Source of the DNA: Eledone cirrhosa
Lineage: Eukaryota
NCBI GenBank assembly: GCA_964016885.1
Contig: OZ024741.1
Span: forward strand, 75,082,001 to 75,146,000
Direction of reading: 5' to 3'
DNA: 64,000 bases
Each line of letters starts with the position of its first letter. Position 1 is the first letter of the stretch. The notes below the pieces were generated by a model. It made no database searches, was not told the origin of the DNA, and saw only the letters and a program-made list of their open reading frames with translations. Positions 24,345 to 61,818 of the stretch are shown piece by piece. Position numbers and translations under genes: made by a program.

Positions 24345-27155
24345 TGTACTTGAATATAAGGCAAGGAATATGTGACCAAAAAAATCGATGGTATTTTTCT
24401 GCAATATACGTATGACCATGTCAACACTGCTACTTGGAGTCCTTTACTGTCCCCCAAATTACCATCAGGACACTCAACTTTGTGATATCCTCAGAGCTGC
24501 TGCCATGAAAACAGCCACTTATGTTTTCATTGCAGGGGACTTCAATCACCCTGAGATTGACTGGGAAACCTTTTGCTGGCTGCAAAGTGCAAATGATTTC
24601 CTTGAGCTAGTGCTGGACTCAAACTGGTCCCATGTAGTCACCTCCCCAACAAGCGGTGACAACACCTTGGATCTACTCTTCACCACTACTCCTGAAACAG
24701 TTATTAGTGTTACTACTGAGGAACCTTTGGGTGACTCTGATCATACTACGATCATTGCCAATCTGTCCCTCATGGGCAGTAACAAAAACCACAACCATCT
24801 CCAAACTGCTCACTTTGACTGGAATAAAGCAGACTGGAACTGTTACTGCACGAAGCTGCAACATTCAAACTGGCTTGAGTTTTACGACTCTGGAGATGTC
24901 AACACTGTACTCCAGGACATCTTGAACTCAATATGGACAGCATGTGCAGCATCGGTGCCACGTAAGCAGAAAAAACATCCCGAAAGTGCAATTTGGGAGA
25001 CTGCAGCAGTCCGTCTTGCCAGGAAAGAATGTCGTAATGCTGAACGTGAGTACAAACTGCACAAATCAGATATCAATAGGAAAAAGCAAAATAAATCATC
25101 CAACCATCTCAAGCAGGTGACAAAAAAGGCAGCGCTTCAACTTGAGTAGCACATAGCAACCAGCCCTGACAGTAAGGTGTTCTGGAAGTATGTTCACTCA
25201 AAGCAGAGGTCTCACTCTCCAGTTGGTCCTCTTCACAATCCCCACAAAAGCCAGGTTACTGACGACCCCAAGGAATGCGCAGAACTCATTGCTGAATGCT
25301 ATGCAGGCATTTTCATTGTTGAAGACCAGAGTGTACCATCTCCACCACCTCTGACATCGGATTCTATTACAACTATGGAATTTACACCTGCAATGCTGTG
25401 ACATCACCTTAAAAATAAATGCAACCATGCCTCTCTTGGTCTTAATGGTGTTATGTACCTGCTTCTCAAACATGGTAGGTACTTCCTTCTGCACCAGCTA
25501 TCACACTTCTTCCAATTCTGTCTGAATAACGGTGCTACTCCAGAGCAGTGGAAAACTGCCAGTGTCATTCCTCTGTTCAAAAAGGGTGACTTCACATAAC
25601 CTGTCAACTATCATCCAGTCAGTCTTACTAACTGCATTGCCAAACTGATGGAATCTTGTGTCAGAGAAGCATTACTGTCAGCAGCAATTTGCGTTGGACA
25701 AAGCACGTCTCTAAAATTGTCAAGAAGGCCGAGGGTGTCTTAGCATCACTCAGTAAGACCTTTGTCAGTCGCTCTCCAGCTATCTATTTAAAGCTGTATA
25801 TAGCTATGGTGTGGCCACACTTACAATTTGCATCACCAGTCTGAAACCCCTATCTTGCTCAGATACATTGATCGCCTTGAAACTGTTCAGAGATGTGTAA
25901 CCAAGCGAATACCCTCCATCAGGCATCTACCATACTCTGAACGCCTTGCTTTTCTGGGCATGGATACATTGAAGCTCGCACATCTGGCAACTGACTTGGT
26001 AAACAACCACAAAATTATTAACCATCTTGCCAACAACAACCCTGAGCACCTTTTTGATTTCCAAGTGTCTAACAAAGTCAGAAAACAGCACAGCTCCCAT
26101 GACTTTCAGAAACATTTTTTCATGCTCAGAGTTGCTGATGCATGAAACAAACTACCTGCATCAGTTATTAGCTGTCGAGACACTGCATCCTTTAAAACCT
26201 CCAAGCTTTCTGAGATTTGCCAACACTACACCTGATGTCCGCCCTCCATACACACGCACACATGTATTTCATGACTCATACACTGTTCACTTTCCTGACA
26301 TTTGTACATTATTCTATGTACTATACATGCAACTTTGATGAGTTGTAGTGCACCTGAGCACTGTACACAATAATTTCATTATTATTATTATTATTAGAAT
26401 GGGAGGGGGATTGGCTTATATTTGAGGTCAATATTTTGACAATTTTCACCAACTTCAAATTTTATGTAAATAAGGTGCTAAAATATCTGGAGTGATTATT
26501 TTACCATGAAGTACCGTTTTTCAACATTTACTACATCATTGTTGGTGTTATTTTGGCATTCACTTGAAAATATTTCCAACAAATTTTTATAATTTGAACT
26601 TTCTAATACATAAATATTCCATACACATACACACATACATACAAACACACACATACACATGTATACACACACATACATGTTTTCTCTGACAATGCTTTTT
26701 CTTTCAATCTTGCTTTTGATTTTATTTTATTGCTCTTGCTCTCTCTTTCCTCACTCTGCCTCCCCTCACTCTCACTTGCTGTCTCTCCCTCTTCTCAATA
26801 CTAAGCTGTCTCTCCCTCTTCTCAATAAATCGCTGTACTAAGTTCTCTTATTCGATCTTTTGTTTTCAACTACTCCTAGCTTGTGAGTTCCTGGAAGTAA
26901 ACAAAAATTCCAGAAACTTGTTGAAAGTGAAACAAAAACTATATTCTAAATGACACTTAAAACAATTTAAACATCAAAATATTAAAACTTCATAAATATA
27001 TTTTATACTCATGGGAATTTCAAATCCACACTATCTAAACATAATGTGTTGAATAACTGCTGGGGCTTATAAACAGGGTTTGGAAGTTTGCCTATTCCTC
27101 ACACATAAAATAGGGGTCACGTTATATATGGATTGACTTATATTTGACTTTATAC
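24345..27155. mobile_element. pogo/Tigger-like non-autonomous DNA element (MITE) interrupted by a CR1
   Basis: Left end tacttgaatataag...atatgtgacc...aatcgatggt and right end ...ataggggtc...gacttatatttga... match the uninterrupted copy at ~35172-35542 and the partial copy at 62295-62725. The superfamily assignment comes from resemblance of the ends only. Confidence 0.55.
24395..26395 (+). mobile_element. CR1-clade LINE, 5'-truncated and internally deleted, with (ATT)n tail
   Basis: APE motifs YCPPN, IAGDFNHPEIDW, NTLDLLFT and LGDSDH; FWKYV; RT start WKTASVIPLFKKG...PVSLT; C-terminal LYIAMVWPHLQFASPV and LETVQRCVTK; ATT tail at 26378-26395. Confidence 0.88.
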
Positions 27156-51193: not shown

Positions 51194-52662
51194 TCATCAT
51201 CATCATCATCATCATCAACGTTTAACGTCCGTGTTCCACGCTTGCATGGGTTTGGACGGGGGTAGTCCCACTTGAGGCAAGAGTGATTGTCTTGCTCGCA
51301 TAGGACTGTCTGGCAGGTTTTCTACAGTTGGATGCCCTTCCTAACACCAACCACATTTACAGTGTGGCTCTGGGAGGTTATTACCGTGTTGCCTACACGG
51401 CCACATTACAGCGTGGACTGTGTGTTTTTTTGTCGTGACACCTACACGATCTCATTTGTTTCGGTCTCGATGGCGCGGCACCAACATAACTTTACATAGA
51501 ACGGGGTGGTGTGGATGGGGTGGGGGTGGTGGTGGTGGGACGGGGTGTATTTTGTTAGAGATGCCTACTGGCTGGAGTAGGTTTTACTATATATTTAGGT
51601 AAGGCGGGTCTTCTCTGTTACTGAGTACCGCCAAAGGTCTCGGTCCAGTGACATTGTCTTGGAGAGGTGTAAGTGTGTGATGTCGGAGTTTATCAACTCA
51701 TCCCAGGTTTTTCTAGGTCTGCCTATTCCGTGACTACCGTCTATCTTTATTGCCCTGCACTTTGTTATACAGCTATCGACTTTCATGCGCATCACGTGTC
51801 CATACCAACGTAGCCTTCTCTCGAGTAAACAACATCTGATCCCTCTTATCTCTAATTTTTTCCTTAGTTCGTTTATGCTTTGCCGTTCACGTATATTACT
51901 GTTACACATCCAGCGGAGCATGCAAGCTTCGTTCCTCTCTAGTCTGCGTATATCCTCTGCACACAATGCCCAGGTCTCACTGCCATGCAGCATTGCTGTT
52001 CGTATGCAGGCATCGTACAAGCTGCCTTTCATTTTTAGTGAGAACCCTTTAGCAGCTAATAGTGGTATAAGCTCTCTGAACTTTTTCCAACCAGTTCTGA
52101 CTCTAGCTACAGTACTTTCAGAGCACCCTCTCCCACTGCTGATTTTATCGCCCAGGTAACGGAAGCTGTCCACTATTTCTATGGAACCCTCTGCGCAATT
52201 GAAAGAGCTAGTATTTTGTGGGCACTTGCTGCTACTTATTGCACCAGAGCACCGGCCACATGTAAAATCTATGTTCTTAGTTAGCTTACCTGTGATCCCA
52301 CTACATCTTTTATGCACCCATACTTTGCATTTAGGACATAAAATGGAGTTTCTACCTACGCCTTTCCTACACACCGAGCACGACCATTTCCCAGAAGGGA
52401 CCGCCGCCTTGTTTTCTTTCCTACAAACTAGTACTTTGGTCTTAGCCAGGTTAATTTTAAGTCCTTTTGACTCTAGGCCGTGCTTCCATGTTTGGAATTT
52501 CTTCTCTAGCTCGGCCATTGATTCCGCTATGAGTGTCAGGTCGTCTGCGTATAGGAGTTCCCATGGGCAGCCTGTCTTGAACACCTCTGTTATAGCCTGA
52601 AGGGCAATAATAAATAGTAGTGGGCTGAGAACAGAGCCCTGATGGACGCCAACTTTTACGCT
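51194..52662 (-). mobile_element. Young 5'-truncated RTE LINE with open 3' ORF
   Basis: ORF 51595..52716 is nearly identical to 33467..34687 after its first 18 flank-derived residues. Confidence 0.95.
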
Positions 52663-53049
52663 ATGAAGAAATATATATATCTTTACACAAGTGTAGATAC
52701 ATACAAAGGTGTCCAACCGACACTAAGTTTTGCTCTATGAAAGAATTAACAAAGATCAACCCAATCAGACTGCTTTTTCTAGTTGAACGCAACCTGCCAA
52801 TGTCCACCTTACTACCCTCGTGTTGATTGCATATCATGTGATAGTTCTTCTATTTGAAATTTTCACTGATAGCAAAGAAGAAGGAATTTTTCTGTCTTGA
52901 ATTTTCTTTCTTGACTGAGAAAGTCTCCTGATGATTTGAGATTTCTTGCAATACTCTACTGGGAGTATCGTTATTTTCTCAATGAAACTGTAGTAGGGAC
53001 ATTAAAAGTAAGTAAATATTTTTTTTTATCTTGTTTGTTTTTCCCAGAT

Positions 53050-53403: not shown

Positions 53404-54907
53404 ATATATATATGCATACATATGATTATATATATGCATATGTGTGTGTGTATATATATATGTATACATATTATCAAAACAAATATTTGAGATCATCTGA
53501 AATAATTATACTAAATAAATGTCATCACTAAATAGTGAAACATATAAATAAAATACGAATAACAGCCATTTTAATCCACTCACATTCATGGCTGTAATTA
53601 GTGAAAATTACCAAAATATAATTAATGATCAGATTTTATTTCCTGGTGATGTCTGTAGTTTTACTGTGGGTGACACTAAATATATCCATATGGGTACAGA
53701 CATGGCTGTGTGGTTAAGAAGATTACTTTGCAATCATGAGGTCTTGAGCTCGATCCCACTGTGTGGTATCTTGAGCAAATGCCTTTATCATAGCTTCAGA
53801 TTGACCCAAGCCTTGTAAGTGAAATTGGGTAGACAAAATCTGCATGGAAACCATTGGATGAATTGTACAGGGAATTGAAAAATCTAATTTTGCCTTATCA
53901 TATATTGTATCATGCTGATTTGGCTTGGGCGTTATCTACTATTTCTCATCTATCCATCTATCGATCCATATGTCTATCTACCTATCAATGTACCTACCTA
54001 TCTATCTATATGTCCATATTCCTTCCTACGTACATATCTGTGTATCTATCTATTTATCTACTTGTTCATCTCTATGTTTAGATCATATTGTTCTGCCTAT
54101 ATGCATTAAACATCATATGCTGAATTTCCAGCTTATTGAACTGTTCTCTTTAAATGTAAATCAACAAATTTAGATACAATTTGACATATGAGATTTTAAA
54201 ACTGCTTTCCTTACTATGTTTATAAACTATGTATACGTTATTTCAGGACATTCAGGCCTCATCATTTGAAATTCTAAATTTGCATTTCCTAGCCAGAATC
54301 AATTTAGTTATTGATTGTAGCAATAGTAGAAGTGGTGGTGGTGGAGGCAACAACAGCAGAAACATTTTACATAAAATTTTATGACATTAGTTAGTTACAT
54401 GAAATGAAACAGCAAACTGAATTAACAACAACAACAACAACAACAACAATAATAACAAAAGCAATGGTAATAATAATAATATGCAAAGATCTATAAGAGA
54501 ACTATAAAATAATTACGAGTTTCTAATAACCTTTAAATTTAATGAAATTGCAAACGGTGGCTGAAAATAAAATGCATTCATTTTATGAAAACATTTGTTT
54601 TCATGTCAACGTAAATTAGTTTAACCCCCTCCCCCCCTTTTCTATTGATTTATTTAACAGTATTTAGCGGAAACTGATTTAATTAATGCAATTCTACAGA
54701 CGATGTCTTTCTATTGATACAGGGGTTTTTTTGTTTTTTTTTGCTTTCTCAGTGTATTTTGTTGGAAGGAAATTTCGGGAGGAAATTTAATATTTCCATT
54801 TGTGCTCCATGACAGAATAATATAATTCTCATAATTCACATTCTTCATGTCCGGTCCTTGACACTCTCAAATTTATGCGATCATTTATTTCTCTGTGTTA
54901 TTATTAA

Positions 54908-55103
54908 ATTGGCAGTATCGGTAGAAGGTCGGACGCCATGCTTTGACGCATAGAGTTATGGCCCTTGCCATTCTGAGTTCAAATCCCGCCGAGGTTAACT
55001 TTGCCTTTCATCTTTACGGGGTCGATAAAATGAAGTACCAGTAATGCACTGGGTAATTGCTGGCCTTGTGCCAAAAGTAGAAACAATTATTATTATTATT
55101 ATT
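54908..55103 (+). mobile_element. Family-A SINE with (ATT)n tail
   Basis: Homologous to 23618-23802. Confidence 0.9.
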
Positions 55104-55230
55104 TCTTTTTATTACATCCTCTGTTTTTTGTTATTTTTACACGCAGAAATGCCCATTTGTACCGTCCTGTATTGTCCTGTACTGTCCTTAATGTCTACTT
55201 TGTGTAAACCCTTGTGGTTAATAAAGAAAG

Positions 55231-55263
<33 letters not shown>
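55104..55263 (+). mobile_element. Extremely 5'-truncated copy of the Tx1-like element (3' UTR + ATT tail)
   Basis: Aligns to ~61193-61350 (acatcctctg...acacgcagaaatgcccatttgtaccgtcctg...taaacccttgtggttaataaagaa). Confidence 0.92.
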
Positions 55264-55584
55264 TGTTGTTATTCCTTGAATCTCAGTCATTGATGTTGGT
55301 TAACTGGAAAGTCCGTTGGAATGAATATCAAGCCACTACCTGCAGCCTCAGATATTCAGGACGTATCGGAGGGTTCTTGCTGTTCCAAGCAAGCATGCCT
55401 TTTGAAGCATTCCAAAAAGCGTGAAGGGGCCGATTTTCTTTAACCATCCCTGGAAACTTTTGGAGATAGTCCCCAGTGCGCCTATGACAATCGGGATCAC
55501 TTTGACTTCATGGCAGTTCCAAATCCTTTTCACCTCCCACTTTAGGTCCTGGTATCGGTTAATTTTCTCCCTCTCCTTCTTTCG
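55264..55584 (-). mobile_element. R4/Dong-clade non-LTR 3' fragment (RLE C-terminus)
   Basis: KEREKINRYQDLKWEVKRIW...VIPIVIGALGTI...LQKACLLGTARTLRYVL, with the stop ending at 55348. Short UTR, and (TAA)n on both sides. Confidence 0.8.
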
Positions 55585-55824
55585 ATTATTATTATTATTA
55601 TTATTATTATTGAATGCCATGGTTGACGGAGGCTCGGCTCTGTAAGGTATAGTAATTTTTGACCGTTGAAACAATTGTAAATTGTTTAAAACTTGAACCA
55701 AATTGTTGATAAAGACACCCTCCTCCTCGTGAGAGGGGTCTTTCTGTCCGTTATTTGGCCCTTCGGGGTTGAATAACCAGTTATTGGGGTTTTGTACCCA
55801 AAATTTCATTTTAAACAAAAAAAC

Positions 55825-57600
55825 ATGGCTACGAAAAAGAAATTTCATACGTCACTCCCACTCATTCCGTCTTCTTCTTCCTCAATCATCACTACAGCAG
55901 AGAGAAGATTGTCTCTCTCCCTCCCTTCTTTAAATGTGTCTCTCTCCCTCCCTTCTCTTTCGCAAGCGACGAAAGAAAAGAAAAGTCTCGTGCAAAGCGT
56001 GCAAGGTTTCTCCACGACGACGACGACAGCGACGAAACAGGTGTGCGGGAAATACGAAAACCCAGTTCATTCGTCTGACGTCAGGAATAATAGCAGTAGC
56101 AGCCGTAATAACAACAGCAACAGTGACAATGAAAACAACAGTAGCAGCCGCAACAGCATCACCAGCAGCATAAACAACAACAGCATTAGCAGCAGCAACA
56201 CCAACAACAACCACAGCAACAGCGGCGGAGGCAGTAGTCGTAGTACCTGCAGCAACAACAAAAGTACCAGCAGCTCTGACGATAACAACAACAGCAGAGA
56301 AAAACCAATCTCATTTGCAGGTATTGCGAAAAACTTGGAAACAATCCTCATAACAAATGAGGAATTAGAGGAAGCGAAGAAGATGGTGACAAAGAACGGA
56401 CACCGAGCAATCTGCAAGGCAGCGAAAAATTTTTTCGAAACCCAAGAGCACTGTACGGTCACGTACCGTACAGTAAGTACAAAATCCCGTAGGGTGGAAA
56501 GAGCCACAGAGGCCCAAATACAAAAAGCCTTGGGGTCTGTGTGGCAGAGGAAAACGCACATCACCCGAGGCAAAAAATACGCCACCGTAGACGTACTTTT
56601 TGCCACACCCCAGGAGGCAAAGGCCCAATCAGTAGTGACCCTAAGGAGCGAGGAAATGGTGTTGGTGCCCTCCTACTGCGGGCAAAAAATTGTGAGGGTC
56701 AAACTGACCCACGTCCCCCCCGGAATGACCCCTTCTTGGCTGGCCGCGTCTGTCCTCGTCGGAATCGAGGACAAAACAACTGTACTGCAAGTACAGAAAA
56801 AAGTAAGAGAAGATTGGGTCGGCTCCTCCATTGAGATGCTAATCCAAACCAACCAGGAGTGCATCGAAGCTATCCCGGATGTGATAGACTTCGATAACGG
56901 CACTCAACTGCCCATAAGTGTTGAGGGCAAACGCCCGAAATGCTTTCGCTGTGGATCGAAGACTCACCTCAGGGCCTTCTGCAACGAGAAGACCTGAGAA
57001 AGGAGAAAACCCCCCTCCTTCCGAATCCGGCTCCACGGCTACCAGCAACAGGACAAGCGGCAACCAGGAACGATAGGTCCGTGGCACCCATACCCACTCC
57101 ACGGAAATCAAAGACAGCAGCAGCAGTGGAAATATTAACAACAACAACAGCAATACCAAATGCAGCTGCAACAGAGACTCCAGTGCAAACATCACCAACA
57201 ACAACAAGTGAAAGAGTGGAGCTGGTACCCCTCCCCGACCTTACAGAATCAGACATGGAGTGTGAGGTGGGAGAGGGATGGCAAAAGGTCGCAAGAAGGC
57301 ACAAACGCAGAAGCAGACATTTCACAACAGGACTACATAATACCAGCACCAATCAAAACGCCAACTAACATAAGACTGCTAAAAATAGCACAGAAACAAT
57401 ACACAAACATTAAAACGAAATTTCCCAACGCAGTTGGTGATTTCAGGGACCTAGGAGGAACCATTAATCGAAGAGTATATTCAGACATTCTCTTAGAAGA
57501 GCCGACGACCAGCCGAAGGGACGATTCAACGGTCCCTTCACCAGACGATCAAGTGAAAAGGGATGTAAAAACCATCCCTCCTCTACCAAAAATACGGTAA
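55825..57600 (+). CDS. Tx1-like ORF1 (nucleic-acid-binding, zinc knuckle); reading frame broken after 56997
   Basis: ATG at 55825, an N/S-rich tract and CFRCGSKTHLRAFC (CX2CX4HX4C). Probable continuation in frames 56940..57368 (WQKVARRHKRR) and 57160..57600. Confidence 0.75.
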
Positions 57601-57635
57601 GTGGTCTTTCCCATCTTTTCCACTCTATTTTAAAC

Positions 57636-60600
57636 ATGACCTCACTCAGAATAGGCAGCATAAATGCGCGTGGCTTGGGGTCGTCATGGAAGCAGGGTCA
57701 CCTGCTCAACGACCTCAGGTCACTAAACATAGATGTAGTGGCCATCAGCGAGACCAGAATCTCCGAAGCACGGGCCTTCGCACCGATCTTCGGCGGCTAC
57801 GATGTGTACGCATCTCCCAGCCGTCCTGGATCCGGTGGAGGAGTTGCTGTACTTTTTCGGAGAGGTTTGGATCTCGCCATACGGGCCATCTTCCTGGACC
57901 CAGAGGGTAAGCTGGTGGTGCTGGACGTGACCAGCGGAGACGGGCAAGCTTTCAGGCTAGTGGCCGTCTATGCCCCGACAGGAGCAGGGCGGCCTGATTT
58001 CTTCCGGCGTCTGGAGACCTTTCTTGGAACGTCCCGCTCTTTAGTGTTAGTGGGCGACTGGAACGGGATCTTAGATGCACGCTGGGACTGTGTGGGATTA
58101 GCGGATAGGGGTGGAGGGTGCAAGAGCCTCACCAACCTGCTCAGGCGTTTTGAACTGTCTGACAGGTACCGATTGGATTTCCCGAATGTGCCAATGTGGA
58201 CTTGGACAAACCGCATAGGGTCATCCAGATCATATCTAGATAGAGTATTTTGTAGGGAAATAGATAGGTCTAGCATAGGCTGTCCACAATTCAAGATAGT
58301 CAGCTACACGGACCACAAATTCGTGATCTGTGTGCTTGACTTAGATAGGCTTCATAGACGAGGACCCGGCTACTGGAAGCTAAACGCGTCCTTACCAGCG
58401 CGCAAGGCCTACAGAGACCGGATTAGCGAACTAGTTAAGCGGGCGTTGACGGGGGCCATCGTCAACAACAAGTGGTGGTTTGCTCTGAAAAGAGCGATTA
58501 GAATAGAATCGATTAGGTTTAGTAAGGCTTTAGCAATAGAGAAAAATAGAGCAGAGGGAGAACTAGTTAGAAAATTAGACGAGGCGCTTAGCAAAGGCAT
58601 TGCGACCGACGTGCTTGCGGCGAAATTGGCCCTTGACCAATTCTTCAATGCAAAGCACGAAGGCTGCGTTGTCAGAGCTAGGGTGCGTGCTCTCAGACAC
58701 GAGGGGACGAAAGCCGTTCAATGGGCCCGAGTGGCGGAGGCGCGTCGTGGCAACAAAGCCACGATCCGGTCTTTGGTGGACCACGACGGGCGCATGCTAC
58801 TCGATCCCGGGCAAATGTGTGAAACTTTTCAGCGACACTTCGCTCAGCTGTTCGGGGGCAGCGGGGGGCCGGGTAGAGGGATGGACTTTAGTGTCTACCT
58901 CGACGGGCTGCCGCGGCTCTCGGCCACTGAGGCGAGGTGTTGCGAAAAGCCGATAACAGCCGCTGAAGTACGGGAGGCAATGACTGGCTGCACAAGGGGT
59001 AAATCGCCTGGTTTGGATGGTCTGCCCTATGAACTTTACGTACAGATGCCAGACTTGTTCGGAGGCCTCTTGGCGGACGTCTACTGCAACTGGCAACAGA
59101 ACGGGAGAATTCCCAGTTCTGTGAGCCGAGGAGCGGTGGCACTGCTGAGAAAGGATCCGAACAAGGGGGATAACATAGACAATTTCCGGCCCATAACTCT
59201 GCTAAACACAGAGTTTAAGATTTTGGCCAAGGTGCTAGCAAAGAGGTTGGCGCTTGTCGTTGGTGGTCTGGTGGGAGAGGCGCAGACATGCGCCATTCCC
59301 GACAGATCCATCCACGACAACCTCCACCTCATGCGATACATCGTAGAGAGGGTAGCTAGGGAACCTGGCACGGGTGGGTCCTTGATCAATTTAGATCAGT
59401 CGAAAGCTTTCGATAGGGTCGACCATCGTTACCTAGCGGCAGTCCTGAGGGCGGCTGGCTTTGGGCCCGTCTTCAGAGGCTGGATCGCTGCCATGCACAG
59501 CGACATCTGCTCTGTGGTGAGAGTGAACGGTCACCTGTCGGAACCGTTCAACATCATGCGCTCGGTCCGCCAAGGATGTCCCCTCTCGTCCCTCTTGTAC
59601 GTATTGACTCTCGAGCCATTACTGCACAAACTGGAGACGTTGAGGGGAGTCCCGCGCGAACTAGGATGCGGAAGATCCGTGTCAGCATATGCGGACGATG
59701 TCACCGTAGTGGTGTCGAACGCCAAACACATCGAGGCGATCGGCACTACACTAAGAGAATACGAAGCGGTGACAGGAGCAATGATCAACCAGGAAAAGTC
59801 AGTGGGCCTGCAGCTCGGCACCTGGAGAGGCAGGTCCATGCCGTCCAACAGCGTCGTCGGGCGCTGGACGGACGGACCGGTTAAATTGCTAGGGGTCTGG
59901 TTCGGTCCGGACCTCCAGACGGACAAAAACTGGGACGAGGTGACGAGCAGGGTGGCTTCTCTCACCCAGAAATGGGCGGAGAGGAAGCTATCCCTGAAAG
60001 GTCGAGCGGAGGTGGCTAACGCGTACATCGCGTCTGTCATCTGCTACCGCCTAACCGTCGTACCTTGTCCTAAGCCTCGCCTGACTGCGCTGGAGCGTTT
60101 ACTCTTTCGCTTTTTGTGGAAGGGACGTGCTCCGATGGTCAGGCGGTCCATCTGTTGTCAACACCCGCTACGTGGAGGGCTGGGCATGCCGTGGCTGATG
60201 ATGCGCAGGCACGCGCTCAGGCTACGACATCTCCACCTCTTCCTCGACGGTGATCAGGTGTGGTCGCCGTTTGCTAGACGCGTTTTTCCCCAGCTCGTTT
60301 CCTTGACGGAGCTGCAGTCCTGGGTCAAGCGAAGACCGAGAGGGAGCGCCTGGAGACTGGAATGTCTTCAGGCGCTCACAGCCCTCGACCAATCGGGCAA
60401 TGTGATCGGTGGAAACTCCACCTCGGCGTTCTATAGAGGATTAGTGGAGGGGAAGAGCGACGACGTACTTGGGGAAACTCTAGGCGTCGACGAAAATCAA
60501 CTAGCCAATCTCTTCGGAAGAACTTTCGGGCCAGGGCCTATGGACAACTTCCAGAAATCTCTGGCCTGGCAGTGCTACCGAGGAGCCTTGCCAGTTCGGG

Positions 60601-61055
60601 ATAAACTCTACAGGCATGGAGGTGCCGTCAGCCGGGCATGTCCGAGATGCGCGCAGGGCGACGAAACCGTCCTGCACGCACTCGTCCAGTGTCCGAAAAT
60701 TGCTGACTTGTGGGTTTATGTCGAACACCTGCTGTCGCGTTTAGGACGGATCCAGCTATCATCTGAGTCCATCGTGAGGATTGCCCCGCCCTCCTCCTTT
60801 AGCCGGGAAGGGCAGGCAGTTTTTATCTGTCTGGTGGCCATGGCGAAAGAGATAGTATGGTGGACACGTTTGAAAGGGCTGAAGACGAGCACTTACCTCT
60901 TCGGTGATGCTCTGATTGACTTTTTCAAATTTCATTTGAAAAGGAAAATCAGAGTAGAGAGGGAAGTGCTCTCTTCCCAGCATTTTGTTGAAAGATGGGT
61001 GAGAGAAGCAAGAATGGCCCGAGTGAATGGGCCGACTCTGAGTATATATCTGTAA
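57636..61055 (+). CDS. ORF2: APE endonuclease + reverse transcriptase + C-terminal zinc finger, 1139 aa, intact
   Basis: EN motifs SINARGL, ISETR, VYAP, VGDWN, SYLDRVF and TDH; GPGYWKLN; KSPGLDGL; FRPITLLN; LDQSKAFDRVDH; RQGCPLS; AYADD; GGLG; CPRC-x5-ETVLHALVQC. Confidence 0.96.
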   Translation: MTSLRIGSINARGLGSSWKQGHLLNDLRSLNIDVVAISETRISEARAFAPIFGGYDVYASPSRPGSGGGVAVLFRRGLDLAIRAIFLDPEGKLVVLDVTSGDGQAFRLVAVYAPTGAGRPDFFRRLETFLGTSRSLVLVGDWNGILDARWDCVGLADRGGGCKSLTNLLRRFELSDRYRLDFPNVPMWTWTNRIGSSRSYLDRVFCREIDRSSIGCPQFKIVSYTDHKFVICVLDLDRLHRRGPGYWKLNASLPARKAYRDRISELVKRALTGAIVNNKWWFALKRAIRIESIRFSKALAIEKNRAEGELVRKLDEALSKGIATDVLAAKLALDQFFNAKHEGCVVRARVRALRHEGTKAVQWARVAEARRGNKATIRSLVDHDGRMLLDPGQMCETFQRHFAQLFGGSGGPGRGMDFSVYLDGLPRLSATEARCCEKPITAAEVREAMTGCTRGKSPGLDGLPYELYVQMPDLFGGLLADVYCNWQQNGRIPSSVSRGAVALLRKDPNKGDNIDNFRPITLLNTEFKILAKVLAKRLALVVGGLVGEAQTCAIPDRSIHDNLHLMRYIVERVAREPGTGGSLINLDQSKAFDRVDHRYLAAVLRAAGFGPVFRGWIAAMHSDICSVVRVNGHLSEPFNIMRSVRQGCPLSSLLYVLTLEPLLHKLETLRGVPRELGCGRSVSAYADDVTVVVSNAKHIEAIGTTLREYEAVTGAMINQEKSVGLQLGTWRGRSMPSNSVVGRWTDGPVKLLGVWFGPDLQTDKNWDEVTSRVASLTQKWAERKLSLKGRAEVANAYIASVICYRLTVVPCPKPRLTALERLLFRFLWKGRAPMVRRSICCQHPLRGGLGMPWLMMRRHALRLRHLHLFLDGDQVWSPFARRVFPQLVSLTELQSWVKRRPRGSAWRLECLQALTALDQSGNVIGGNSTSAFYRGLVEGKSDDVLGETLGVDENQLANLFGRTFGPGPMDNFQKSLAWQCYRGALPVRDKLYRHGGAVSRACPRCAQGDETVLHALVQCPKIADLWVYVEHLLSRLGRIQLSSESIVRIAPPSSFSREGQAVFICLVAMAKEIVWWTRLKGLKTSTYLFGDALIDFFKFHLKRKIRVEREVLSSQHFVERWVREARMARVNGPTLSIYL

Positions 61056-61315
61056 ACTAAAGGTGGAAAACTGGGAGAGGGCACTTGCCTTGGTGGTCAG
61101 GGTCATTGTGGCTTTTTACTGGGCTTTCTCCACAAATGTCCCTCCGAAGTCTCCCCCCTATTGGGGAATTTTTCATTGTTATTTTCATTGTTATTTTTGT
61201 TACATCCTCTGTTTTTGTTTTTTTACACGCAGAAATGCCCATTTGTACCGTCCTGCATTGTCCTGCACTGTCCTTAATGTCTACTTTATGTAAACCCTTG
61301 TGGTTAATAAAGAAA

Positions 61316-61373
<58 letters not shown>

Positions 61374-61377
61374 GTGA

Positions 61378-61818
61378 AGGCACATGGCTTAGTGGTTAGA
61401 GCATTGGGCTTGAAATCGAAAGGTTGTGAGTTCAATTCTCGAACCAGGTGATGTATTGTTTCCTTGTGCAAGACACTTTATTTCACATTGCTCCAGTTTA
61501 CTCAGCTGTAGAAATGAGATGATAGATCTGGAGTCCCTATCATTCCACTGCAAAGTGGTCGTGGAAGTGCCACGGCAAGAAAGCACCCAGCCCACACTGT
61601 AAAGTGGATGTGTAGGTGCCATGGAAAAAAAGCACCCAGCACTCACTGTAAATGAGGTTGGTGTTAGGAAGGGTATCCAGCTGTAGAAATCAAGCCAGAA
61701 TCAGTTCCTGTATGAGCAAGACAAGGTCAGTCGACCGGACATTGCCTACAACAGGACAACCCATCTAACCCATGCTAGCGTGGAAGGACGGACGTAAAAC
61801 GGTGATGATGATGATGAT
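61378..61818 (+). mobile_element. tRNA-derived SINE with RTE-derived 3' half (family B)
   Basis: A box tggcttagtgg and B box gagttcaattc. Segment 61545-61810 matches the RTE 3' UTR at 32642-32902, and it ends in an (ATG)n tail. Confidence 0.88.

What the first reader, a model, noticed from the sequence alone, without database searches (positions are those of the whole stretch)
54898..61373. Four retroelement insertions of three classes stacked in one (ATT/TAA)n array
Seen in order: SINE-A, (ATT)n, Tx1 3' fragment, (ATT)n, Dong/R4 fragment on the opposite strand, (ATT)n, full Tx1, (ATT)n. The whole block is bounded by ttattattaa at both ends (54898-54907 and 61364-61373), a possible low-complexity TSD of the founding SINE. 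Known: Dong (R4 clade, RLE nuclease) inserts in TAA repeats. Inference: an APE-type and an RLE-type enzyme converge on one target from opposite strands, and each tail regenerates the target, making a self-renewing safe-harbour hotspot.
Basis: partly seen in the sequence, partly recalled or inferred. Interest (0 to 1): 0.7.

Follow-up and report, generated by a model that had tools for sequence, protein, structure and literature searches.

The report
Two retrotransposon clades share ATT repeats
Four jumping-gene pieces sit in a row, separated by ATT repeats, and 1,600 of 1,687 intact starts of one kind in this genome follow such a repeat; two unrelated kinds likely cut opposite strands of the same repeat, a habit known from other repeats that appears undescribed for this pair.

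Summary
The block is real as described: SINE, (ATT)6, Tx1-type 3' stub, (ATT)10, reversed Dong stub, (ATT)9, Tx1-type LINE, (ATT)18. It is one of very many such stacks. Genome-wide, 1,600 of 1,687 exact starts of this LINE follow (ATT)5 in register. All 49 Dong 3' ends and 20 Dong 5' ends examined touch the repeat on the other strand. On part of contig C1, 8 of 100 LINE tails abut a Dong tail (0.014 expected). Sharing one target is enough to explain Dong as a neighbour (14 of 36 against 7 of 36 random arrays, p=0.12).

Corrections: the 'full' LINE has a broken ORF1 (1-nt and 320-nt deletions). The SINE adds almost no ATT tail and is not array-specific. The 10-nt TSD fits but proves little. 'Founding SINE' is doubtful, and 'safe harbour' was not tested. 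Opposite-strand nicking is inferred from the standard mechanism.

Precedents exist (Dong in TAA; Kibi/Koshi; TRAS/SART). I found no ATT-targeting Tx1 in the papers searched. This scan has already noted the same pattern at least seven times on other DNA of this genome; the genome-wide counts are added here.

The parts
54898..54907 (+). TTATTATTAA, candidate 5' copy of the SINE-A target-site duplication (weak)
   Evidence: Only two + strand occurrences in the window; fits the SINE-A TSD pattern; 54898-54906 is also matched by a contig of another organism
54908..55085 (+). SINE-A, tRNA-type head (type recalled), about 9 nt short at the 5' end; older than the two LINE copies
   Evidence: Nearest of 73 fetched copies 96.6%, median 89%; last 22 nt match the Tx1 end at 14 positions
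55086..55103 (+). (ATT)6
55104..55231 (+). 5'-truncated Tx1-type 3'-UTR stub, joined at an ATT-like stretch of the UTR
   Evidence: 91.7% to the window LINE; nearest of 97 fetched copies 96.8%
55232..55270 (+). (ATT)10 plus the degenerate end of the Dong tail; Tx1 tail meets Dong tail
55271..55580 (-). 5'-truncated Dong-type (RLE) stub: last 77 codons of the ORF and the 3' UTR; young
   Evidence: Nearest copy 99.7%; full family member L184 is 4.57 kb with one 1141-aa ORF holding RT, CCHC and PD..D..K motifs
55585..55611 (+). (ATT)9 between the Dong 5' end and the LINE 5' start (head to head)
   Evidence: the same junction type at 14 of 36 other copies
55612..61317 (+). Tx1-type LINE (family called Tx1-A here), both ends present, 5.7 kb against about 6.03 kb in other copies; young
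   Evidence: About 99% to 39 fetched copies; nearest 99.8% over the 3' part
55825..56997 (+). ORF1, broken in this copy (1-nt deletion at 56992, 320-nt deletion at 57313)
57636..61055 (+). ORF2, open, 1139 aa: APE endonuclease, RT, C-terminal zinc knuckle
   Evidence: Pfam PF03372, PF00078, PF13966; best PDB hits are LINE-1 ORF2 endonucleases
61318..61373 (+). (ATT)18 and candidate 3' copy of the TSD (61364-61373)
61373..61818 (+).
   Evidence: Other copies start with (A)GTGAAGGC or TGGAGGC and mostly follow (TA)n

Best explanation
The block is a stack of four retroelement pieces separated by (ATT)n; a young Tx1-type LINE family and a young Dong-type LINE family both sit in this repeat genome-wide in opposite orientations, likely because each nicks a different strand and primes reverse transcription from it. 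Shown: Tx1-A reads (ATT)n on its sense strand at both ends, Dong-A reads (AAT)n at both ends, and they neighbour each other across arrays. Inferred from target-primed reverse transcription: the Tx1 APE would nick the AAT strand and pair it with an (AUU)n tail, and the Dong RLE would nick the ATT strand and pair it with a (UAA)n tail. Each LINE insertion would split one array into two and add tail and duplicated units, so targets multiply and stacks grow. SINE-A is likely carried by the ATT-type Tx1 enzymes: same polarity, 10-20-nt TSDs mostly starting with ATTA, and a shared 3' end. It needs only a short ATTA site, so the enzyme probably reads a short motif while the LINE's own repeat-bearing RNA ends favour true arrays (inferred, about 50%). 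Likely order here: SINE-A and Tx1 stub first, then the Dong stub, then the long LINE (from identities and array lengths; weak).
For: 1,600 of 1,687 exact Tx1-A starts follow (ATT)5 in register. 36 of 36 fetched copies scored have 6-19 units at the 5' end; 33 of 33 with a located 3' end have an array there. 24 of the first 30 listed 3' ends have 4 or more units. Dong-A: 49 of 49 3' ends (3-34 units) and 20 of 20 5' ends (5-37 units; 12 of the 20 truncated) touch the repeat. Neighbours across the array: Tx1-A 5' side Dong 14, Tx1 11, SINE-A 1, none 10 of 36; Dong 3' side Dong 20, Tx1 10, SINE-A 6, none 13 of 49. In 0.79 Mb of evenly spaced samples all 19 LINE ends beside 36 arrays had the expected polarity. 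On C1 to 57.8 Mb, 8 of 100 Tx1 tails abut a Dong tail (0.014 expected), 27 of 100 have a Dong end within 10 kb (3.2 expected), and 35 of 37 such pairs have the expected polarity. Only 1 of 34 long copies shows a duplication of 8 nt or more outside the ATT run, and that one is a (TTC)n flank, so the arrays pre-existed. SINE-A: TSD of 10 nt or more in 35 of 71 copies against 3.0 on shuffled pairing; 14 of 22 end-anchored matches to the Tx1 end, shuffle p=0.0002, against 6 of 22 for Dong.
Against: No nicking or transposition assay; strand choice is inferred. 5'-truncated Tx1 copies are much less strict: 5 of 13 have an ATT run upstream, 2 sit after (TTC)n, 1 in (ACT)n, and 2 are units of one satellite. 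Polarity exceptions exist: L096, L218 and 2 of 37 pairs. Dong beside Tx1-A is not significantly more common than beside a random array (14/36 against 7/36, p=0.12), although any element is (26/36 against 14/36, p=0.009); 6 of the 36 random arrays come from one stack. The SINE-Tx1 tail match is marginal as a free local alignment (p about 0.06). One of the 13 'Tx1' calls on the 3' side (L090) is a low-complexity false match. No long read spans this block.
Confidence: 0.82

Rival explanations
1. The LINE is only loosely ATTA-specific and carries ATT units at both ends of its RNA, so the flanking arrays are mostly made by the element and not chosen by it.
For: SINE-A and many truncated Tx1 copies sit at short ATTA sites. 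The 5' junction of full-length copies is unusually exact (1,600 of 1,687), as for R2 elements whose RNA includes upstream target (PMC3774820, Discussion part 1 read).
Against: With a loose target, non-ATT flanks should be duplicated around long copies; 1 of 34 shows this. About 70% of 5' neighbours are other elements' ATT/AAT ends. Dong 5' ends touch arrays even when truncated.
Confidence: 0.1
2. Stacks arise after insertion, by unequal exchange or tandem duplication between ATT arrays, or by better survival in neutral regions, and not by repeated targeting.
For: Head-to-tail runs of near-identical Tx1-A with about 6.05-kb period exist (L091-L093; listings). 29 of 30 close same-family pairs share a strand.
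Against: Neighbours are often different families and ages, each with its own truncation point. Survival alone gives neither register nor polarity. Solitary copies are also flanked by arrays.
Confidence: 0.05
3. This block is an assembly mis-join across microsatellites.
For: Internal junctions cross ATT runs that short-read contigs cannot bridge; no listed record spans the block.
Against: The same junction types recur genome-wide with fixed polarity. Contigs of three runs of one sample run from the unique flank 27 nt into SINE-A (under the tool's 31-nt rule for bridging, and possibly the assembled sample). The two ends carry a compatible duplication.
Confidence: 0.03

Closest known systems
Dong (R4 clade): Bombyx Dong, DongAg, snail DongBg
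   Same: TAA microsatellite target (PMC3812793, passages; that review lists Dong under APE-type elements, whereas PMC4640811 and PMC3774820 passages place R4/Dong among RLE elements). Single ORF with RT, CCHC and PD..D..K here. Young Dong-R4 families are reported in Octopus vulgaris (PMC13282606, passages).
   Different: Here at least two Dong-type families share the target with Tx1-type families. No named Dong sequence was available for a tree.
Kibi (TC)n, Koshi (TTC)n and crocodilian Tx1 families in (TTCC)n/(TTTC)n
   Same: Tx1-clade APE LINEs that insert into microsatellites (PMC4494074, passages).
   Different: Target here is (ATT)n, not listed in those passages; a sister family here lies in (CTAT)n. 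The target is shared with an RLE element.
TRAS and SART in Bombyx telomeric repeats
   Same: Two families insert into one repeat in opposite orientation and form arrays (PMC10088271, passages).
   Different: Both are R1-clade elements with one nuclease type and a telomeric target. Here the nucleases are unrelated and the arrays are dispersed.
R1 and R2 in 28S rDNA (recalled, no call)
   Same: An APE and an RLE element converge on one multicopy target.
   Different: They use separate sites in the same orientation, and insertion does not create new targets.
SINEU carried by Tx1-Mar in crocodilians
   Same: A SINE inferred to be moved by a Tx1 family from shared target preference (PMC4494074, passages).
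   Different: SINE-A has a tRNA-type head (recalled) and a much looser target than its likely carrier.

Membership tests
Tx1 clade (L1 group) | Two ORFs; ORF2 with N-terminal APE, RT and C-terminal zinc knuckle | tested here: met
   ORF1 about 698 aa in most other copies, broken in the window copy
Tx1 clade (L1 group) | RT phylogeny groups with named Tx1, Keno, Kibi or Koshi | tested here: inconclusive
   Of 65 homologues only one bears a name, a Ciona pol-like protein (Q76IK4, 27% identity). No tree was built. The label 'Tx1' rests on architecture, target habit and recall; L1-group membership is firmer than Tx1 membership.
Tx1 clade (L1 group) | Target preference (over 20% of flanks, the criterion in PMC4494074) | tested here: met
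   1,600 of 1,687 starts
Dong / R4 clade | Single ORF with RT, CCHC knuckle and C-terminal PD..D..K nuclease, no APE | tested here: met
   L184, 1141 aa; the window stub holds the end of this domain
Dong / R4 clade | Insertion in TAA repeats on the sense strand | tested here: met
   49 of 49 3' ends, 20 of 20 5' ends
Dong / R4 clade | RT phylogeny with named Dong or R4 | tested here: inconclusive
   None of the 120 listed homologues (of 1,473) is named as Dong or R4
Dong / R4 clade | HDV-like ribozyme at the 5' end | not tested
   Shown for Bombyx Dong in PMC3774820 (passages); the window stub lacks the 5' end
SINE mobilised by the ATT-type Tx1 | Shared 3' end with the LINE | tested here: inconclusive
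   14 of 22 end-anchored (p=0.0002) but marginal as a local alignment (p about 0.06)
SINE mobilised by the ATT-type Tx1 | Shared target polarity and TSD | tested here: met
   TSD of 10 nt or more in 35 of 71, mostly starting with ATTA; beside arrays, SINE-A has Tx1 polarity in 8 of 9 calls in the random sample
Safe-harbour hotspot | Depletion from genes or lower fitness cost | not tested
   No gene annotation or population data were used

The most novel reading that the evidence does not exclude
A radiation of Tx1-type LINEs in this genome has retargeted between microsatellites (ATT, CTAT) through the repeat carried on the RNA ends, on top of an endonuclease that reads only a short motif. The ATT branch nicks the A-rich strand, opposite to Dong and to mammalian L1, and drives an abundant SINE. 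Together with Dong it is the main source of long ATT arrays, so the two clades breed each other's targets.
Probability: 0.3. Interest if true: 0.68.

Novelty: new variant of a known kind. Interest (0 to 1): 0.45.

Why it matters
It gives a large natural data set (6,573 and 7,540 exact 3'-end matches for the two families, many copies near 99% alike) for asking whether the nuclease or the RNA tail picks a microsatellite target, using sister LINEs with different targets and a SINE with a looser one. It names a likely carrier for a SINE covering about 1.9% of the sampled DNA. It also suggests that long ATT microsatellites in this genome are mostly LINE junctions, which matters for marker design and assembly. 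The single locus is ordinary within this genome.

Tried and rejected
DNA searches of the own genome with the Tx1 3' UTR and the ORF2 end returned nothing because common words are skipped; an exact pattern worked. A genome-wide count of Tx1-tail/Dong-tail junctions was not obtained; adjacency was counted on the first 100 Tx1 and 94 Dong places listed for C1. Short-read contigs could not bridge the internal junctions; two RAD runs did not cover the unique flank. Homologue searches gave almost no named elements, so no clade tree was built. Kojima and Fujiwara 2004 and Xiong and Eickbush 1993 were not held; I know them only through citing papers. PMC9115989 was seen only as a search listing. Rejected: Tx1 inserting inside intact Dong bodies (Dong does not continue on the far side in the 14 cases); the SINE tail as a source of arrays; a special hotspot at this locus.

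Full report
Observation. Four of the six ATT/AAT runs of 4 or more units in the window lie here. The genome is 3.0 Gb. Its SINEs look octopod to me (recalled, not tested).

The long LINE. ORF2 (57636-61055, 1139 aa) has APE, RT and zinc-knuckle domains, and its N-terminus matches LINE-1 endonucleases. Against copy L062 the window copy lacks 1 nt at 56992 and 320 nt at 57313, so ORF1 is broken. It is full-span, not intact.

The Dong stub. A full member (L184) is 4.57 kb with one 1141-aa ORF holding RT, CCHC and PD..D..K motifs. Neither family could be placed on a tree with named elements: 1 of 65 homologues of the Tx1-type ORF2 is named, a Ciona pol-like protein, and none of the 120 listed Dong homologues is named as Dong or R4.

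Target specificity. 1,600 of 1,687 exact Tx1-A starts directly follow (ATT)5. I fetched 39 stretches with long copies and scored 36, leaving out three stretches of one tandem array. All 36 have 6-19 units at the 5' end. The 33 with a located 3' end all have an array there. The 3' 28-mer occurs 6,573 times (control 0), and 24 of the first 30 are followed by 4 or more units. The Dong-A 3' 26-mer occurs 7,540 times. 49 of 49 3' ends and 20 of 20 5' ends, 12 of them truncated, touch the repeat on the other strand. Only 1 of 34 long Tx1-A copies has a non-ATT duplication of 8 nt or more around it, in a (TTC)n flank, so these copies landed in existing arrays. Against this, 5'-truncated copies are looser: 5 of 13 have an ATT run upstream.

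Co-occurrence. Across the 5' array of Tx1-A lie Dong 14, Tx1 11, SINE-A 1 and nothing recognised 10 of 36. Across the 3' array lie Tx1 13 (one a false low-complexity match), Dong 5, SINE-A 1, reversed Tx1 1 and nothing 13 of 33. For Dong-A the counts are 20, 10, 6, 13 of 49 (Dong, Tx1, SINE-A, none) on the 3' side and 6, 6, 1, 7 of 20 on the 5' side. Background came from 79 evenly spaced 10-kb stretches: Dong covers 1.0%, all Tx1-like families 5.4% and SINE-A 1.9%. All 19 LINE ends beside the 36 arrays of 5 or more units had the expected polarity. On C1 to 57.8 Mb, 8 of 100 Tx1 tails abut a Dong tail (0.014 expected under uniform placement), 27 have a Dong end within 10 kb (3.2 expected), and 35 of 37 such pairs have the expected polarity. 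Against random arrays the Dong excess is not significant (14/36 against 7/36, p=0.12), while any element is (26/36 against 14/36, p=0.009). The random set is small and 6 arrays come from one stack. A shared target, perhaps weighted by array length, is enough.

Self-renewal. 7 of 7 random arrays of 8 or more units touch a LINE, against 6 of 29 shorter ones (p=0.0002; 3 of the 7 from one stack). Tx1-A has median 8 units at its 5' end and 15 at its 3' end. Dong-A has median 9 at its 3' end and 19 at its 5' end. So for both, the longer array lies on the same side of the ATT strand, which I cannot fully explain. SINE-A does not renew arrays by its tail: 41 of 45 copies have 0-2 units.

The SINE. 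35 of 71 copies have a TSD of 10 nt or more (3.0 on shuffled pairing), mostly starting with ATTA. Its last 22 nt match the Tx1 end at 14 positions (p=0.0002; Dong 6), although a free local alignment is marginal. It is likely carried by the ATT-type Tx1 enzymes.

This locus. TTATTATTAA fits the SINE-A TSD pattern, but the 3' copy is part of an ATT run and its last A may be the first base of SINE-B. A contig of another organism (run X1) matches the left flank to 54906 with 30 differences and 6 gap letters over about 410 nt, then has 19 letters that do not fit this SINE head. The letters were not shown. A longer TTA run there would fit the place where the contig ends (inference), in which case the array is older than the SINE. 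Nearest fetched copies are 96.6% for SINE-A, 96.8% for the Tx1 stub, 99.7% for the Dong stub and 99.8% for the LINE, which puts the first two earlier. A mis-join is unlikely but not excluded: contigs of one sample run 27 nt from the flank into the SINE, and nothing spans the block.

Mechanism. Shown: flanks, polarity, register, neighbours and domain content. Inferred from target-primed reverse transcription (established knowledge): Tx1-A primes on the AAT strand and Dong on the ATT strand, and each insertion leaves two arrays. The exact Tx1-A 5' junction may come from pairing between ATT units at the cDNA end and the target, as proposed for R2 (PMC3774820, Discussion part 1 read); this is untested.

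Known systems. Dong in TAA repeats, including a snail element (PMC3812793, passages). Kibi, Koshi and crocodilian Tx1 in pyrimidine-rich microsatellites, and a Tx1-carried SINE (PMC4494074, passages). TRAS and SART in opposite orientation in telomeric repeats (PMC10088271, passages). Young Dong-R4 and L1-Tx1 families are counted in Octopus vulgaris, with no occurrence of the word 'target' in the main text (PMC13282606, passages). PMC4640811 and PMC3747384 were read as passages. Seven searches showed no ATT-targeting Tx1 and no Tx1-Dong sharing. Repbase, subscription journals, the 2004 Kojima paper and all supplements were not seen and may hold such a note.

Verdict. Real, genome-wide, and a new variant of a known habit. 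This scan has noted it repeatedly on other DNA of this genome (7 of the 8 notes shown concern ATT). Interest 0.45.

Noticed in passing
L104, L113, L160, L166, L171: A sister Tx1-type family (about 60-70% protein identity to ORF2) has nearly the same 3' end but ends in and sits within (CTAT)n instead of (ATT)n.
   Followed up: partly
L066:8059-10000 (oriented), L124: A second family (Tx1-B) shares about 95% of the 3' 3.7 kb with Tx1-A but has a different 5' UTR and a diverged ORF1, a 5'-end swap; it also follows (ATT)n.
   Followed up: partly
upstream flanks of L067, L075, L077, L079, L080, L088: A second young Dong-type family (Dong-B) with the same target and polarity.
   Followed up: partly
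L091-L093; G000:C1 near 55.43 Mb and 114.80 Mb: Head-to-tail runs of near-identical Tx1-A at about 6.05-kb period.
   Followed up: no
arrays beside Tx1-A and Dong-A copies: For both families the array on the right of the element, read on the ATT strand, is longer (medians 15 and 19 against 8 and 9), even for truncated Dong 5' ends. Unexplained.
   Followed up: partly
window 26318-26395; L116, L134, L061: Another repeat family whose end is followed by (ATT)5-7; not identified.
   Followed up: no
L227, L228: A Tx1 3' stub with a non-array TSD has become part of a tandem satellite unit.
   Followed up: no
L218, L096: Two polarity exceptions: a Tx1 stub directly after a sense-strand Dong tail, and a reversed Tx1-like piece after an ATT array.
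   Followed up: no
window 51595-52722, minus strand: RT fragment of an RTE-like LINE (label recalled) with a PHD-finger match inside the RT region.
   Followed up: no
L152: A randomly sampled 10-kb stretch holds a stack of several Dong pieces of two families and a SINE-A in six arrays.
   Followed up: partly
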